A DNA stretch of 64,000 bases from assembly GCA_020638675.1 (NCBI GenBank), contig JACKID010000001.1:1518225-1582224 (forward strand). Direction: 5' to 3'. Position numbers: made by a program. Within the stretch, counting starts at the first letter, position 1. Every line of letters begins with the position of its first letter. Source of the DNA: Planctomycetota bacterium (GTDB lineage Bacteria > Planctomycetota > UBA8742 > UBA2392). Below, piece by piece: positions 52,801 to 61,800 of the stretch.

Positions 52801-55800
52801 GCGGGTGCTTCTGGGGCATGGAAGAGTTGCTGCGCGAGATCCCCGGCGTGATCGACACCGAGGTCGGCTACTGCGGGGGCGAGAACGCAGATGCCACGTA
52901 CAAGAACCACCCGGGCCACGCGGAGGTCGTGAGGATTACCTTCGACCCGTCGAAGCTCAGCCTCAAGACGCTGCTGGAAGACTGGTTCTTCCGCATGCAC
53001 AACCCGACGACGCTGAACCGCCAGGGCAACGACCGCGGCACCAGCTACCGCAGCGTGATCTTCTACGCGAACGACGAGCAGAAGAAGGTCGCCGAGCAGG
53101 CGATCAAGGACATCAACGACTCCGGCCATTGGGCCGACCCGATCGTCACCACCGTAGAGCCGGTCAAGAACTGGAGCACGGCCGAGGATTATCACCAGGA
53201 CTACCTGCAGAAGAATCCCAACGGCTACACCTGCCACTGGCTTCGCGAGTGGGACCCGGCAACGACGAACAAGAAGTAAGGTAGCGCGGGCGTCTAGCTC
53301 GCGACGGCAGAAAAAGCAACCCGCGGCCTGTGTCCGCGGGTTGTTCGTTTAGTTCCTGCGGACGGGGCGTCCGCGGTCCATTAGCTGCGTGAGCGAAGGT
53401 CGATGCGCGCGTCGGCCACGGAATCCATGGCGCGCAGGCGGTTCTTCAACTCGGTGAGCTTGTCGTTCGGCGAAAGCTCGAGCGTGCTGGCATGCGCCGG
53501 CGGGCGTCCCCACATCACGCGTGCGCCGGGCATGCGGGACTGGTCGGGGATCAGCACCACGCCGCCGTCCGGCTGGTAGTGTACCCGCCCGCGAGCATCG
53601 GCCTGCTGCGGCACACCGACTAGTTCGATTTCTTCAATCGGCATCGAACGGTCCAGCTCGGCCTGGCGGATGACGCGTTCCATCGAGAGCGCGGCGACGA
53701 TCTGCTCATTGATCCATTCATCGCCCGCGGCCGGCGCCGAGCCGACGACCCCGCGCACCATGCGAAGCGGGTGGGCAAGCTGGCTGGTGAACAGCGCGTA
53801 CTCGTCGCCGTCCTTCGGTACCGACAGCGGCAGGACCACGCCGTCGCCGTCGACCAGCACGTAGCGGTCCGCGGTGTCCACCACCACGGCCGGCGTGCGA
53901 ATCTCCAGTACGGGCAGAAAGCGCGAGTAGCCATCGGGATCGGTCGGGAAGCGGCGCTCGATGCGCAGCACGCTTCGCACCCACGGGCAGCGCTCCATGC
54001 GCTCCGTGATAGTGTCCATCAGGTCGTTGTCGAACGCGTTTGTTTCCGGCAAGTCGGCGAGGTCGGCGCGCAGGTCTTCCTCGATCTCGCCTTTGAGCTG
54101 CCTGGCGAGGTTGCCCTTGGCCCAGGTGGGGGATGCGGAAAGCTCAATGCGGCCCGGGTCGACGCGATAGCGCTCATCGTTGCGAAGATTGTGCAGCATC
54201 ACCCAGGACAGCAGCGATACCACAACCACGCCGCCGACCAGCCCGGCGCAGCGACGCACGCCCCGGCTGTGCCACGCGGCCGAGAAGAAGCCGCTGACGG
54301 TTTCGCCCGACGGCGTCACGGCCTGCACCAGCTTGGCGACGCCCGCGAACAACACGCCGAAGCCCGCCTTGATGGCGCGCATGGCAGTGCTGCGCGCGCG
54401 CAGGCGCGTAGGCTTGCTGCGGGTGACCTTCTTTGTTTTGCGGCGCGGCATGGCGTACTCCTAGGCTGCGAGGATGCGGGTAATGCGGTTGCTGACAGGC
54501 TTGCGGCGCTGCTCCATGCTTACGTCGACCAGTTCCTGCACCAGCTCGTCGAAGCCGATGCCTTCCTGCGCGGCCGCCTTCGGCAGCAGGCTGGTCTCTG
54601 TCATGCCGGGCAGCGTGTTGACCTCGAGCACCCACAGCTCGCCGTCGCCGTCCAGCATCATGTCGACGCGGCTGTAGCCGTGGCAGCGCAGCGCGTGATG
54701 TGCACGGCGCGCGTAGTGCTGCGCCATTTTTGCGGTCGGGCCGGGCAGATTCGGGTTGGTGTCGTAGCGGGTGCCGGCCGTCTTGTCGTACTTCGCCTTG
54801 AAGTCGTAGAAGCCGGTGGGGGCGATGACTTCGCAGACGGGCAGCGCGCGGTTGCCGACCACGCCGACGGTCAGCTCGCGCCCGACGATGCACTTTTCCA
54901 GCATCACGCGCGGCCCGAACTTGAACGCGCCGCCGAGTGCATCCGGTACTTCGTTCAGGCAGGTCACCTTGGTGACGCCCAGGCTGCTGCCCTGGTCGAT
55001 CGGCTTGACCACCAGCGGCCAGTTGATGCGGCGGGCCATGCGGCGCAGGCGGTAGTCGGCGTCGAATTCCTCCGCGACTTCGTAAGGCGCGGTGGGGACG
55101 CGGTGGGTAAGGAACTCGGCCTTGCTGAGCTCTTTGTCCATCGCGAGGCGGCTGGCGATCGGCCCGCTGCCGGAGTAGGGGATCTGCAGCTCTTCCAGGC
55201 GGCGCTGGACGGTGCCGTTCTCGCCCTCGCCGCCGTGCAGCGCGATGAAGGCGAAGTCGACCTTCTCATTTTCCAGCATGCCGATTTCGTCGGAGCCGAT
55301 GTCGAGCGGAAGCACGTGGTGGCCGATGCGCTCGAGCGCGGCCCAGACGGCCTCGCCGCTCTTGATGCTGACTTCGCGTTCGGAGGAAGTGCCACCGTAG
55401 AGGAGAGCAATACGCAACATGGTGATGTCCATTGTCGGAGAAAGCGGCGCCAAGGTGACGGCCGCGAAGGGGCTATCGGTAATAAGGAAGCGTGCGCTTT
55501 AGCAGAGTTTAGTGGCATCGCCTTCCAGGCGATGAGTTGCAGCGGCTTCAAGCCGCTGCAGGCGCCTGCTGGAAGCAGGCGCAACGCACTCGCTGGAAGC
55601 GAGTGCCACTAGAGTTTGACGTAGAGGCCGTCAAAGCGCAGCGCGAGGTTTGCGCGGCTGGTGGCGAAGCGCAGGGGCTCGCCGTAGACGTAGACGCCTT
55701 CGTAGCGCCCGCCGGTGATCTTGAAGCTGACGGTGAACTCGTGATCGGGCCAGAAGCCGTCCTCGAACATGATGTGCCCGAGCAGCGCGCCGTTGGGCGA

Positions 55801-58800: not shown

Positions 58801-61800
58801 TACTCGCCTGTCCGCCTGCGTTTTCCACGGCCTGCAGGCTCATCGATCTTTGCTTCGAGCTTGCGGGCCAACCCATTGATGATCCGGCCAACTTCATCCG
58901 CACGACTTGCCAGCTCCGCTGACTGCTCTTCCTCGAGGTAGTTGAGCCTGCGCGCGATCTTGATTTGCGTAAACGACTCCGTCAGAGAGCCGTAGGAAAT
59001 GCTGAGGTGATTCAGGAATTCCTTCGTTGAAAACCGCCCCTGGCCCTCGGCGATGTTGCTCGGCACGCTGACGGCCGATCGGCGCAACTGTGACGTGAGC
59101 CCGTACAGCTCCTCCCGGGGCCAGTTGCGGGTCGAATGGTAGACTTCGACCACGAAGTCCATGGCTTTCTGCCACGCGATCAGATCTTCAATACTCTTGA
59201 CCGACATGCGTACCCTCGCCGACAGCGGCTTCTGGCCACTGGCCACGGTCCACTGACCACTCGCGCGCAACGCGCGCTATGCGGCAGCGCGTTCTTCTAA
59301 ATCGGCAGCGGAGGGTGGTTCGCTGAGGCCAATTTCGGCCAGAATCCGGTCCAGAATCGTGCCGGATGCGTTCGGTGCAGACAGGGCCAGGGCGGCCTTG
59401 GAAGCCGCCGAGCGGGCCTGGTCGTTCAGCAGCAGAGTCTCCAGCAGGTCGCGGACGCGGGGTGCATCCAGTGTGGCTTCTGGGGCGACTACGCCGGCGC
59501 CGCTGCCGGCGACCCAAAGCGCGTTGGCGCGCTGGTGATCGTCGGCGGCGTGGGGGTAGGGGACCAGCAGCATCGGCACACCCAGCGCCAGCAACTCACT
59601 GATGGTGCCCGCGCCGGAGCGCGTAAGCGCCAGGTCGGTCGCGGCGAACCAGGTCGCCGTGTTGTGCGTAAACGTGGTGGCGCGGCAGTGAACGCCCACG
59701 GCGCGCCAGGCGCGCTCGGCGCGGTCGCGGTCGCCGCGGCCTGTGATGTGCAGAACCTGGAAGCGCTCGCGCATGTTGCGGAACGTCGGCGCGGCGCTGA
59801 TCATGGCGTCATTGAGTGCCTTGGCGCCCTGGCTGCCGCCGATGATCAGCAGCGTCGGCAGGCTGGAATTCAGCCCCAGCGCGCGTTTGGCGTCCGCCTT
59901 GTCCGGCGGGTTGCCGAATGCCTTCCGAAGCGGGTTGCCCACGACTTCCACTTTGCAGTCCAGGTTGCGCGTGAGCGGCATGTGCGCGTAGCAGACGCGC
60001 GCGAAACGCGCGATGGTGCGCGTGACCTTGCCGGGAACGGCGTTGGCTTCAAGCGAGAACACAGGCAGGCGCATCAGGCTCGCGGCCATCGCGCCGGGCA
60101 GTCCCGCGTAGCCGCCGACACAGACCAGTGCATCGGCCTCGAAACGCTTCAATGCCTTGCGTGCAGCCGGCACCGCCATGGCCGTGGTGATTACCGTGGT
60201 CGCCTTGCTGCGCAGCCCCGCGCGCGGGCGACTGACGGGCAACGTGGTGAAATCAAAGCCGGCGTGGCCGTACATGCTGCGCTCGAGGTCGTTGCCGCCG
60301 CACAGCAGGTGGACGCTTTCGCGCCCGAAGCGCTCAGACAGTTCTTCAGCGAGTGCGAGTGCGGGGGCGATGTGTCCGCCGGTGCCGCCGCCTGCGATTG
60401 CGATTCTGGGGTGCATGGTTCTCGTCCAGGATTGGCGCTGCGGGTGCAGGGACGGACAAGCCCTATGCCGCACCCGCAGCGCCTGACTTCAGAAGAGCGA
60501 CCCGGCCTTCGAACAAATCGCTACCGGGCTGCAACTTCCGGGAAAGGTAGATCAAGACGACGCGACTATGCGCCGCGCCCTGGCACTCAGCCGGGCGCTT
60601 TCGGGCAGACGCTCGCCCGCCATCTCCTGTTGCAGCAGCGCGAAGGCTTCCTTCTCGCTGACGCACCGGCGGGCGACCGACAACACCAGCCCCGCGCCGA
60701 CCAGGTAGAAGAAACAACTGCTGCCGCCGAAACTGATGAACGGCAGACCAATGCCCTTGGTGGGAACGCTGGCGGTAACCACGGCCACGTTGATGGCGGC
60801 CTGCAACCCGATCGCCGCTGTGATGCCGATTGCGAGCAGGCTGCCGAAGCGGTCCGGCGCTCGCGCCGCGACCTTGGTTCCGATGATCATCAGCGAGACA
60901 AACAGCACCAGCGTCAGCGCCGAGCCGATGAATCCAGTCTCTTCGGCAAGCACGGCGAAGATGAAGTCGGTCTCCTGCTCCGGCAGGTAGTACAGCTTCT
61001 GCATGCTGTTGCCGAGGCCCTGGCCTTCCATGCCGCCGCTTCCGATGGCGATCAGCGACTGCTTGACCTGGTGGCCTTTGCCGCGCGGATCTTTGGCAGG
61101 GTCCAGGAACGTCATGATGCGGTCCTGGATGTGATCGAACTTGGCGTACATCACGATGCTGGCAAACGGCAGCACGATCAGCGCGGCGATCGCGAGATGG
61201 CGCACTCGCAGCCCGCCCGCGAGCAGCACGACGAATGAGCTGGCCGCAAGGAACAGGCTGGTGCCGAAGTCGGGCTGTGCCATCGTCAGCACAACGTAAA
61301 TGCCGACGAACATGCAGCCCGGAAGGAAGCCGCGCCGGATCGAGCCGAGCTCGTTGCGCCGGACCGCGGCGTAGGTCGCGGCCGAGATCAGCAGCGCAAG
61401 CTTGGCAAAGTCGGACGGCTGGATGCCGACACCGCCGAAGCGCAGCCAGCGGCGCGCGCCGTTGAACTCCGTGCCGACGCCGGGGATGAGCGTGAGTACC
61501 AGCAGCGCGAGGCCAAGCAGGTAGATCGGCTTGGCGAACTTCTGCCACAGGCGATAGTCGAGGCGGGCCACGACGGCCATGCCCGCGATGCCCAGCCCGA
61601 CGAACATCAGGTGACGCTTGATGAAGACAAAGGGGTCGATCTCGGCGCCGGGCACGACGCGGATGGCGCTGCTGCTGAAGACCATCACGACGCCGACGCC
61701 AACCAGGGCCAGGATGTTCAGCAGGTACGCGTTGCGAAGGGTGCGTGACACGGTGAGATACCCCATCCGCCGCGAACATCACGGCATGGTGTACTCTTCG

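What the first reader, a model, noticed from the sequence alone, without database searches (positions are those of the whole stretch)
53381..61766. dcw cluster stops at ftsQ with no ftsA/ftsZ, and carries a PilZ gene plus a 92-aa ORF between murB and ddl
The order on the minus strand is ftsW-murG-[4HB]-murC-murB-[92-aa ORF]-[PilZ]-[hairpin element]-ddl-ftsQ. This is followed by a convergent msrAB gene rather than ftsA-ftsZ, and murD/mraY are not upstream of ftsW within the window. Absence of FtsZ is established for Planctomycetota, and the window matches that. A c-di-GMP-binding PilZ domain protein (RxxxR ... DxSxxG) and a small conserved-looking ORF sit inside the cell-wall synthesis operon. 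These could be lineage-specific regulators linking second-messenger signalling to peptidoglycan synthesis or division in an FtsZ-independent system.
Basis: partly seen in the sequence, partly recalled or inferred. Interest (0 to 1): 0.6.

Follow-up and report, generated by a model that had tools for sequence, protein, structure and literature searches.

The report
Orphan gene pair inside planctomycete cell-wall cluster
In an uncultured branch of the FtsZ-less Planctomycetota, the cell-wall gene cluster always carries two extra small genes: a highly conserved 92-residue protein of unknown kind and a divergent PilZ-type (probable c-di-GMP-sensing) protein; this may link a second messenger to wall synthesis, whereas the missing ftsA/ftsZ is the ordinary state for the phylum.

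Summary
The gene order is real: ftsW-murG-[4HB]-murC-murB-[92 aa]-[133 aa]-ddl-[FtsQ-like], ending at a canonical bidirectional terminator opposite a convergent msrAB.

The absence of ftsA/ftsZ after ftsQ is what the literature reports for all Planctomycetota, so that part is not new.

The 133-aa protein fails the Pfam PilZ model completely. Three other lines of evidence still place it as a divergent stand-alone PilZ:
- The RRxxxR and DYSPxG motifs are invariant in 31 homologues.
- Its AlphaFold model is a six-stranded barrel, and its 28 best PDB matches are all PilZ domains.
- Its family profile reaches bona fide PF07238 proteins (hhalign probability 99.8%).

It lacks the canonical C-terminal helix.

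The 92-aa ORF is a real gene. It has an acidic helical hairpin, a basic disordered tail and an invariant C-terminal IKxIA. It has no Pfam, PDB or fold relative. It lies directly after murB in all 33 related loci, and its amino-acid divergence is as low as or lower than that of the cluster's enzymes. It also shows unexplained synonymous-site constraint.

The PilZ gene follows it in 30 of 32 informative loci. Two independent rearrangements break after pilZ, never between the pair.

The 4HB gene and the multi-hairpin element are insertions specific to this genome.

The function (c-di-GMP input to peptidoglycan synthesis or division) is inferred, not shown.

The parts
60552..61766 (-). ftsW (SEDS lipid II polymerase/flippase family)
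   Evidence: PF01098, E 1e-99. TIGR02614 ftsW scores 363.6 bits, above its 337.5 cut-off. rodA scores 303.6, below its 336.7 cut-off.
59277..60473 (-). murG
   Evidence: Glyco_transf_28 and Glyco_tran_28_C.
58747..59281 (-). Insertion private to this genome: a four-helix-bundle '23S rRNA intervening-sequence protein' gene (ORF 58800-59270, probable start about 59207), flanked by imperfect inverted repeats of about 50 nt.
   Evidence: PF05635, E 6e-40; TIGR02436. Absent from all 33 related loci. Relative to L002, the insertion begins right after the murG stop. Inverted repeats 58747-58796 and 59232-59281 are 76% complementary. GC3 is 0.75, against 0.81-0.90 for the neighbours.
57325..58767 (-). 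murC
   Evidence: Three Mur ligase domains.
56423..57328 (-). murB
   Evidence: FAD_binding_4 and MurB_C. The ATG overlaps the murC stop by 4 nt.
56367..56422 (-). Conserved leader of the 92-aa gene: GGC-GAAA-GCC, then ACACCA(A/G)C, then GCCCCAAGGGC, then a Shine-Dalgarno site.
   Evidence: Sequence is conserved across 19 loci. RNAalifold supports only an invariant 3-bp stem, with no covariation.
56088..56366 (-). orf92: conserved orphan protein with an acidic helical hairpin, a basic disordered tail and an invariant C-terminal IKxIA.
   Evidence: 55 homologues, none with a Pfam domain. 22 invariant columns. AF2 helices at 9-33 and 43-64, core pLDDT about 90. No specific PDB fold match. Directly after murB in all related loci. 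dN is as low as or lower than for the neighbouring genes and dS is the lowest, with excess identical codons. pI is 4.4 for the hairpin and 11.1 for the tail.
56048..56080 (-). GC-rich hairpin just after the orf92 stop, followed by a C/A-rich tract with no U-run.
   Evidence: A strong hairpin occupies this position in the window and in all 22 loci examined, with unrelated sequences. It is not called as a canonical terminator.
55609..56010 (-). Divergent stand-alone PilZ-fold protein (133 aa) with RRxxxR (R36, R37, R41) and D69-Y-S71-P-N-G74.
   Evidence: No PF07238 hit. Motifs are invariant in 31 homologues. AF2 gives a six-strand barrel. The 28 best Foldseek PDB matches are all PilZ domains. 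38 of 59 scanned remote profile hits are PF07238. hhalign probability 99.8%.
55510..55611 (-). Element of four hairpins enclosed by an outer stem, private to this genome.
   Evidence: MFE -76.5 kcal/mol, z -6.8. Absent from the 95%-identical relative L002 and from the other loci. No other copy in the window. No Rfam match.
55473..55502 (-). Conserved CTAAAG-N19-CCGATAG motif upstream of ddl (promoter-like; inference).
   Evidence: Present in most of the loci shown. Not a sigma-70 consensus.
54461..55453 (-). ddl (the real start is probably the ATG near 55420).
   Evidence: Dala_Dala_lig_N and Dala_Dala_lig_C. In-frame starts listed.
53381..54451 (-). Divergent FtsQ-like bitopic protein.
   Evidence: No Pfam hit itself. 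8 of 24 family members hit POTRA_1 FtsQ-type, best E 6e-5. One homologue is named FtsQ/DivIB by NCBI. Transmembrane segment at 68-86 and a basic N-terminus. The gene starts 9 nt after ddl.
53315..53345 (.). Bidirectional intrinsic terminator between ftsQ and the convergent msrAB.
   Evidence: A 10-12 bp stem with T-runs on both strands.
52119..53279 (+). msrAB fusion, convergent; marks the end of the cluster.
   Evidence: SelR and PMSR. Occupies the same position in most close relatives.

Best explanation
This is the distal half of a fragmented dcw cluster (ftsW-murG-murC-murB ... ddl-ftsQ) from an uncultured lineage of Planctomycetota that GTDB-Tk could place only at phylum level. That phylum is reported to lack ftsZ altogether and, in most species, ftsA.

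Two lineage-specific genes have been fixed between murB and ddl.

**orf92.** A small cytoplasmic protein. It has an acidic two-helix hairpin that probably oligomerises, a basic flexible tail, and an invariant C-terminal peptide that probably docks on a partner. It closes the ftsW-murG-murC-murB transcription unit.

**The 133-aa protein.** A divergent single-domain PilZ receptor. [quoted passage not shown] Like other stand-alone PilZ adaptors (MapZ, PA0012), it would then act by binding a partner protein.

**Most likely working model.** The pair forms a c-di-GMP-responsive accessory module. It would tune a step of lipid II synthesis, or the FtsW/FtsQ septal machinery, encoded around it.

**Likely transcription.** The hairpin after orf92 would set a higher orf92:PilZ ratio by attenuation or by protecting the mRNA 3' end. 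ddl-ftsQ would have its own promoter.

**Shown:**
- gene identities
- fold
- motifs
- conservation
- synteny

**Inferred:**
- c-di-GMP binding
- the orf92-PilZ partnership
- the target
- the transcript architecture
For: - **Gene identities:**
- **PilZ fold and homology:** AF2 barrel. The top 28 Foldseek PDB hits are all PilZ domains, several solved with c-di-GMP. A profile search reaches PF07238 proteins. hhalign gives E 1.3e-27.
- **Motifs:** invariant in 31 homologues. They are also kept in a syntenic orthologue that is only 27% identical: RRFQR and NYSPEG in P0148 at L025.
- **Synteny:** orf92 lies directly after murB in all 33 related loci. pilZ comes next in 30 of 32 informative loci, and ddl-ftsQ next in 27 of 29.
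- **Rearrangements:** the two that were seen (L012, L013) both break between pilZ and ddl.
- **Purifying selection:** dN/dS is well below 1 for both genes, and the dN of orf92 is as low as or lower than for the neighbouring genes.
- **Transcript layout:** about 40 nt of C/A-rich leader plus a Shine-Dalgarno site separate the hairpin from pilZ, which leaves no room for a promoter.
- **Charge:** the orf92 hairpin has pI 4.4 and the PilZ protein pI 9.8.
- **Phylum-wide FtsZ loss:** PMC12673574, PMC12283558.
Against: - There is no experimental or co-expression evidence.
- PF07238 does not recognise the protein.
- The canonical C-terminal helix is missing.
- The whole neighbourhood, from the pilin-like gene to the aminotransferase, is collinear among the closer relatives. 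Much of the synteny could therefore be inertia.
- In the most divergent loci (L024, L033), orf92 follows murB without an adjacent PilZ.
- The hairpin and the promoter-like motif suggest that pilZ is not simply one cistron of a single cell-wall operon.
- No GGDEF/EAL gene was seen in the window. The rest of the genome could not be inspected.
- In Planctopirus limnophila, most dcw genes, and the orphan gene at the equivalent position, are non-essential (PMC10632474).
Confidence: 0.5

Rival explanations
1. The two genes are passengers. They were inserted once into a dcw spacer in the ancestor of the lineage and are kept there by general genome collinearity. The PilZ protein would regulate something unrelated, for example the type IV pilin-like genes just upstream of ftsW, motility or exopolysaccharide. 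orf92 would have an unrelated housekeeping role.
For: The whole 15-kb neighbourhood is collinear among the 22 species. Hairpin and promoter-like punctuation lie around pilZ. PilZ is absent next to orf92 in L024 and L033. Known stand-alone PilZ proteins mostly regulate motility, chemotaxis, secretion or polysaccharide synthesis (PDB hits). P. limnophila carries an unrelated-looking orphan gene at the same murB-ddl position.
Against: In L025 the flanks have changed (RecG upstream, MFS transporter downstream), yet ftsW-murG-murC-murB-orf92-pilZ-ddl-ftsQ is intact. orf92 stays attached to murB even where MurB is only 46-51% identical. Both rearrangements spare the orf92-pilZ junction.
Confidence: 0.3
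2. The 133-aa protein is a PilZ-fold adaptor that no longer binds c-di-GMP, like the eponymous PilZ proteins PA2960 and XAC1133. It would act purely as a protein-protein adaptor.
For: It falls outside PF07238. It lacks the C-terminal helix of canonical PilZ domains (definition in bioRxiv 10.1101/814665). No c-di-GMP enzymes were seen in the window.
Against: [quoted passage not shown] Here both motifs are invariant across 31 homologues and retained in orthologues only 27% identical.
Confidence: 0.12
3. The orf92 locus owes part of its conservation to an RNA-level function, such as a structured or regulatory mRNA segment or sRNA within the dcw transcript, rather than to the protein alone.
For: Identical codons at conserved residues reach 0.87-0.89, against 0.61-0.63 in the neighbours (p down to 1e-8). 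dS is 2-4 times lower. The leader is conserved, and a hairpin follows the gene in every locus.
Against: The protein-level signal is clear: the invariant residues map onto a confident two-helix model and dN/dS is below 1. The mRNA fold is not unusually stable, z -1.35. There is no covariation in the leader and no Rfam hit. Strong translational selection on a highly expressed small gene could give the same pattern.
Confidence: 0.1

Closest known systems
Canonical stand-alone PilZ-domain c-di-GMP receptors (PF07238), e.g. MapZ/PA4608 (5XLY) and PA0012 (8U0I)
   Same: A single-domain protein of similar size. It has an N-terminal loop with RRxxxR and a [D/N]hSxxG motif on a six-stranded beta-barrel. 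These proteins are the best structural matches, and profile-to-profile homology is clear.
   Different: Not detected by the Pfam model. No C-terminal alpha-helix. A conserved N-terminal helical extension of about 35 residues. The genomic context is a dcw cluster. No held paper mentions both a PilZ domain and a dcw cluster.
Fragmented, ftsZ/ftsA-less dcw clusters of Planctomycetota (Phycisphaerae, Planctomycetales, Ca. Brocadiia, Ca. Uabimicrobiia)
   Same: The mur, ddl, ftsW and ftsQ genes are retained. ftsZ, and here ftsA, do not follow ftsQ. The cluster is split, with murD, mraY and ftsI not adjacent (PMC12673574, PMC12283558).
   Different: This lineage has two conserved extra genes between murB and ddl. 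P. limnophila has murC-murB-[orphan Plim_0010]-ddl, where the intervening gene is a poorly conserved hypothetical. Its homology to orf92 could not be tested.
FtsQ/DivIB (POTRA_1 PF08478 plus FtsQ_DivIB_C)
   Same: The gene lies directly after ddl. The protein is bitopic with a basic cytoplasmic N-terminus and one transmembrane segment. Some family members hit POTRA_1.
   Different: The window protein itself scores below every Pfam and NCBIfam threshold. A family profile finds no PDB FtsQ.
23S rRNA intervening-sequence four-helix-bundle proteins (PF05635 / TIGR02436), relatives of DGR Avd
   Same: A strong HMM match, and the gene is flanked by inverted repeats as in rRNA intervening sequences.
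   Different: It is inserted in a murG-murC spacer rather than in rRNA, and it is present only in this genome.

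Membership tests
PilZ domain (PF07238, canonical) | Scores above the Pfam gathering threshold for PF07238. | tested here: not met
   No hit, even at E<=10. None of the 31 close homologues carries a precomputed Pfam domain.
PilZ domain (PF07238, canonical) | N-terminal RxxxR c-di-GMP-binding motif. | tested here: met
   R36-R37-E-F-R/K-R41. 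R36, R37 and R41 are invariant in 32 sequences. The motif is aligned with the RxxxR column of PF07238-positive relatives.
PilZ domain (PF07238, canonical) | [D/N]hSxxG motif with a hydrophobic h residue. | tested here: met
   D69-Y70-S71-P72-N73-G74. D, S, P and G are invariant and Y is nearly so. The distant syntenic orthologue has NYSPEG.
PilZ domain (PF07238, canonical) | Six-stranded antiparallel beta-barrel. | tested here: met
   The AF2 model has six strands at residues 41-125, with pLDDT about 85-92 across most of the barrel, lower at the last strands. The 28 best Foldseek PDB matches are all PilZ domains, best E 3.5e-4, probability 1.00.
PilZ domain (PF07238, canonical) | C-terminal alpha-helix packing on the barrel (Galperin & Chou, bioRxiv 10.1101/814665). 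| tested here: not met
   The model ends with strand 6 (121-125) and the protein stops at residue 133. Helices are predicted only in the N-terminal extension.
PilZ domain (PF07238, canonical) | Sequence homology to bona fide PilZ domains. | tested here: met
   The family profile finds 61 proteins. 59 of the 60 remote ones were scanned, and 38 are PF07238-positive, including the best remote hit, P0142. hhalign probability 99.8%, E 1.3e-27.
PilZ domain (PF07238, canonical) | Binds c-di-GMP. | not testable with these tools
   Needs a binding assay. The presence of diguanylate cyclases in the genome could not be checked. None is in the 64-kb window.
FtsQ/DivIB | POTRA_1 (PF08478) and/or the FtsQ_DivIB_C domain. 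| tested here: inconclusive
   The window protein has no hit. 8 of 24 homologues hit POTRA_1, best E 6e-5. The profile search against PDB finds nothing.
FtsQ/DivIB | Bitopic topology, with the gene placed after ddl at the end of the mur block. | tested here: met
   One hydrophobic segment at 68-86 after a K/R-rich N-terminus. A 9-nt gap after ddl. The same position in 27 of 29 loci.
FtsZ-less planctomycetal dcw organisation | No ftsA or ftsZ downstream of ftsQ. | tested here: met
   A terminator and convergent msrAB lie after ftsQ. tblastn and a signature scan are negative in the window and 23 loci.
FtsZ-less planctomycetal dcw organisation | ftsZ absent from the whole genome. | not testable with these tools
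   Only 64 kb of the 3.09-Mb contig is available. The claim rests on the literature for the phylum (PMC12673574). This particular unnamed lineage was not examined there.
Sm/LSm fold (considered for orf92) | An N-terminal helix plus a five-stranded bent beta-sheet. | tested here: not met
   A weak profile hit to LSm3, E 0.15. The AF2 model is all-helical.

The most novel reading that the evidence does not exclude
orf92 and the divergent PilZ protein are true components of the FtsZ-independent growth and division machinery of this planctomycete lineage. In this reading, orf92 is a new small organiser or regulator that docks through its invariant C-terminal peptide onto MurB, FtsW, FtsQ or the membrane. 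PilZ makes lipid II supply or septal synthesis responsive to c-di-GMP. That would make c-di-GMP a cell-cycle signal in place of FtsZ/FtsA-based control.
Probability: 0.12. Interest if true: 0.8.

Novelty: new variant of a known kind. Interest (0 to 1): 0.45.

Why it matters
How Planctomycetota grow and divide without FtsZ is unresolved. In the one model species tested, most retained dcw genes are dispensable, so lineage-specific genes embedded in dcw remnants are natural candidates for missing parts.

This work identifies two such genes:
- a 92-residue orphan that is conserved at least as well as the enzymes around it.

If the two are functionally tied to the cluster, they would be the first PilZ-type link between c-di-GMP and the core peptidoglycan precursor or divisome genes.

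The practical value is limited for now, because every carrier is an uncultured MAG. The remainder of the original finding (no ftsA/ftsZ, a split cluster) is already textbook for the phylum.

Tried and rejected
1. **Direct HMM identification.** Pfam and NCBIfam gave nothing for the 133-aa, 92-aa and 356-aa proteins.
2. **Family profiles against PDB sequences.**
   - PilZ family: nothing relevant.
   - FtsQ-like family: nothing.
   - orf92: a weak LSm3 hit, E 0.15, rejected because the AF2 model is all-helical.
4. **Rfam on 52-64 kb.** No family matched the hairpins or the leader.
5. **Structure in the orf92 leader.** It is conserved in sequence, but RNAalifold found no covariation. A riboswitch-like reading is not supported.
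6. **Explaining the low dS of orf92.**
   - mRNA stability: z -1.35.
   - GC3: 0.88, the same as the neighbours.
   - Neither explains it.
   - The antisense ORF 56085-56459 lies in the codon-aligned antisense frame. From general knowledge, that frame is stop-poor in high-GC DNA, so it was not taken as evidence of double coding.
7. **The multi-hairpin element as a repeat family.** No other copy in the window, and it is absent from relatives.
8. **Taxonomic placement.** Papers and cluster names give only 'Planctomycetota'.
9. **Whole-genome ftsZ/ftsA and GGDEF check.** Not possible with the tools and caps available.

Full report
**Observation**

Pfam and NCBIfam identify the following:

| Gene | Coordinates | Basis |
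|---|---|---|
| ftsW | 60552-61766 | passes the FtsW equivalog cut-off, not the RodA one |
| murG | 59277-60473 | |
| four-helix-bundle gene | 58800-59270 | PF05635/TIGR02436 |
| murC | 57325-58767 | |
| murB | 56423-57328 | 4-nt overlap with murC |
| ddl | 54461-55453 | |

- Between murB and ddl lie a 92-aa ORF (56088-56366) and a 133-aa ORF (55609-56010).
- After ddl, separated by 9 nt, lies a 356-aa ORF (53381-54451).
- The cluster ends at a hairpin with T-runs in both directions (53315-53345), opposite a convergent msrAB fusion (52119-53279).
- Upstream of ftsW there are only an LTD-domain gene and a pilin-like ORF.
- Pfam scans of 30 further window ORFs found no other dcw genes and no GGDEF/EAL proteins.

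**Source and lineage**

- The 356-aa protein is 100% identical to a protein of an NCBI MAG named 'Planctomycetes bacterium' (locus tag H6839_06605), on a 3.09-Mb contig.
- Every homologue comes from unclassified Planctomycetota MAGs.
- One member, H3_PLA7, was placed by GTDB-Tk only at phylum level (PMC7648391).
- The lineage is therefore probably an unnamed deep branch, not Phycisphaerae.

**The missing ftsA and ftsZ**

[quoted passage not shown] It concludes that the last planctomycetal common ancestor already divided without FtsZ (PMC12673574).
- PMC12283558 shows the same pattern and links it to fragmentation of the dcw cluster.
- This part of the finding is therefore correct but already known.
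- Whether this particular genome lacks ftsZ elsewhere could not be tested here.

**The FtsQ call**

- The 356-aa protein has no Pfam or NCBIfam hit, and its family profile finds no PDB entry.
- Eight of 24 homologues hit the FtsQ-type POTRA_1 model, best E 6e-5.
- One homologue is named FtsQ/DivIB by NCBI.
- The protein has a K/R-rich N-terminus and a single hydrophobic segment at residues 68-86.
- It occupies the canonical position after ddl.
- I accept it as a divergent FtsQ, with membership only partly demonstrated.

**The 133-aa protein**

- Deeper tests nevertheless support a PilZ domain:
  - In 31 homologues (57-96% identical), R36, R37 and R41 (RRxxxR) are invariant, and so are D69, S71, P72 and G74 of DYSPxG.
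  - An AlphaFold2 model built from that alignment gives a confident six-stranded beta structure at residues 41-125, after a poorly ordered N-terminal region.
  - Its 28 best Foldseek matches in the PDB are all PilZ domains: PA0012, cellulose synthase PilZ, MapZ, Alg44, YcgR and VCA0042, many solved with c-di-GMP.
  - A profile search of 1.84 billion representatives finds one cluster for the family itself. After a large gap it finds 60 remote relatives.
  - Of those 60, 59 were scanned and 38 are PF07238-positive. They include the best one, which passes the Pfam cut-off.
  - Profile-to-profile comparison gives probability 99.8%, with the motif columns aligned.
- Against the published definition of the canonical domain (six-stranded barrel plus C-terminal helix; bioRxiv 10.1101/814665), this protein lacks the C-terminal helix. 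It has a conserved N-terminal helical extension instead.
- It is best described as a new divergent variant of stand-alone PilZ that retains both ligand-binding motifs.

**The 92-aa ORF**

- It has 55 homologues, none with a Pfam domain, and 22 invariant columns.
- The AlphaFold2 model shows two long helices (9-33 and 43-64, pLDDT about 90), then a disordered tail.
- The hairpin is acidic (pI 4.4). The tail is basic (pI 11.1) and ends in an invariant ...IKxIA-COOH.
- A weak LSm3 sequence hit is contradicted by the model.
- dN is as low as or lower than for the neighbouring genes in pairwise comparisons. For example, against L003 it is 95% identical, versus 88% for FtsW and 83% for MurC.
- In distant loci, orf92 is about 60% identical where MurB is 38-51%.
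- Its synonymous sites are also constrained. Identical codons at conserved residues reach 0.87-0.89, against 0.61-0.63 for the seven neighbours (Fisher p 2e-6 and 1e-8). The excess has p<0.05 in 12 of 14 comparisons.
- Neither GC3 nor mRNA stability explains this. It remains unexplained.

**Synteny**

I examined 22 GTDB species representatives, three loci from contig look-ups and eight metagenome loci. L001 is the same place as L014.

| Question | Result |
|---|---|
| orf92 directly after murB | all loci |
| pilZ follows orf92 | 30 of 32 informative loci |
| ddl-ftsQ follows pilZ | 27 of 29 |

- In L025 the flanks differ and the PilZ orthologue is only 27% identical. The block ftsW-murG-murC-murB-orf92-pilZ-ddl-ftsQ is still intact, and the motifs are kept as RRFQR and NYSPEG.
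- In the most divergent loci (L024, L033), orf92 ends the cluster and no PilZ is adjacent.
- The two rearrangements seen (L012, and an inversion in L013) both break between pilZ and ddl.
- Linkage strength therefore runs murB-orf92 > orf92-pilZ > pilZ-ddl.

**Punctuation inside the cluster**

- Every locus examined has a strong GC-rich hairpin immediately after the orf92 stop. The sequences are unrelated, and the hairpin is followed by a C/A-rich tract rather than a U-run.
- The organism does use canonical U-tract terminators, for example after ftsQ.
- Only about 40 nt and a Shine-Dalgarno site separate this hairpin from the pilZ start.
- I infer that pilZ is transcribed by read-through. The hairpin would act as an attenuator or a 3'-end stabiliser that raises orf92 relative to PilZ.
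- The pilZ-ddl spacer carries a conserved CTAAAG-N19-CCGATAG motif, possibly a promoter for ddl-ftsQ. This is also an inference.
- The murB-orf92 spacer is conserved in sequence but shows no covariation.

**Private insertions**

- The four-helix-bundle gene is absent from all relatives.
- Relative to the 95%-identical L002, it begins right after the murG stop.
- It is flanked by imperfect inverted repeats of about 50 nt and has a lower GC3.
- It looks like an intervening-sequence-type cassette.
- The four-hairpin element (55510-55611) is very stable, z -6.8. It is absent from L002 and the other loci, and it is single-copy in the window.
- Neither insertion belongs to the conserved module.

**Mechanism**

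- The best-supported reading is a lineage-specific accessory pair within a planctomycetal dcw remnant.
- PilZ133 most likely binds c-di-GMP, because both motifs are intact and under selection. As a single-domain PilZ it must act through a partner protein.
- The tightest genomic partner is orf92. Its acidic hairpin complements the basic PilZ (pI 9.8), and its invariant C-terminal peptide looks like a docking motif.
- The most economical target is something encoded in the block: MurB or the lipid II pathway, or FtsW/FtsQ.
- All of these steps are inferred from position and conservation.

The main rival is that the genes are passengers with unrelated functions. Support for the rival:
- the general collinearity of the neighbourhood;
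- the internal punctuation;
- the usual motility and polysaccharide targets of PilZ proteins;
- the dispensability of dcw genes in P. limnophila (PMC10632474).

**Novelty**

- No held paper mentions both a PilZ domain and a dcw cluster.
- The PilZ variant is invisible to Pfam and NCBIfam, and orf92 has no detectable relatives outside this clade.
- The FtsZ-less, fragmented dcw arrangement is known.
- Overall, this is a new variant and context of known kinds, of moderate interest, limited by the absence of cultured carriers.

Noticed in passing
window 56088-56366 (-): orf92 shows excess synonymous-site conservation. Identical codons at conserved residues reach 0.87-0.89, against about 0.62 in the seven neighbouring genes, and dS is 2-4 times lower. 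Neither GC3 nor mRNA folding stability explains this.
   Followed up: partly
window 56048-56080 (-); same position in L002-L023: A strong GC-rich hairpin follows the orf92 stop in every locus examined. The sequences are unrelated. The hairpin is followed by a C/A-rich tract (possibly rut-like) and no U-run, although the genome uses U-tract terminators elsewhere.
   Followed up: partly
window 58747-59281 (-): The four-helix-bundle (23S rRNA IVS protein family) gene is a cassette found only in this genome. It is inserted right after the murG stop and flanked by imperfect inverted repeats of about 50 nt that could form a long stem within the dcw transcript.
   Followed up: partly
window 55510-55611 (-): Four consecutive GC-rich hairpins (loops UUCCA, UUCCA, UUGAA, UGGAA) are enclosed by an outer GUGGCA/UGCCAC stem. 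z-score -6.8. Absent from the 95%-identical relative, single-copy in the window, and without an Rfam match.
   Followed up: partly
window 55473-55502 (-); same position in most loci shown: A conserved CTAAAG-N19-CCGATAG motif lies upstream of ddl. It is not sigma-70-like and may be an alternative-sigma (ECF-like) promoter for ddl-ftsQ.
   Followed up: no
window 56367-56422 (-): The 56-nt murB-orf92 spacer is conserved in sequence across 19 loci (GGCGAAAGCC ... ACACCAAC ... GCCCCAAGGGC ... Shine-Dalgarno site). RNAalifold found no covariation.
   Followed up: yes
window 53315-53345: A bidirectional intrinsic terminator (10-12 bp stem with T-runs on both strands) lies between ftsQ and the convergent msrAB.
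   Followed up: yes
window 62257-63967 (-); L001 2825-4556: A pilin-like gene (N_methyl in the L001 homologue) and a lamin-tail-domain (LTD) protein gene lie immediately upstream of ftsW. They keep that position in most relatives.
   Followed up: no
Planctopirus limnophila Plim_0009-0012 (PMC10632474, supplementary file 3): The model planctomycete also has one hypothetical gene (Plim_0010) between murB and ddl. It is scored non-essential and looks, from unlabelled supplementary-table columns, poorly conserved. Its relation to orf92 could not be tested.
   Followed up: partly
proteins P0142-P0201: Several remote relatives of the 133-aa family combine the PilZ-like domain with helix-turn-helix DNA-binding domains (LacI, HTH_3, HTH_24).
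   Followed up: no
window 29672-33712 (+), 36756-39128 (+), 17553-19484 (-): Several very long ORFs (1346, 790 and 643 aa) have no Pfam match at E<=1e-4.
   Followed up: no
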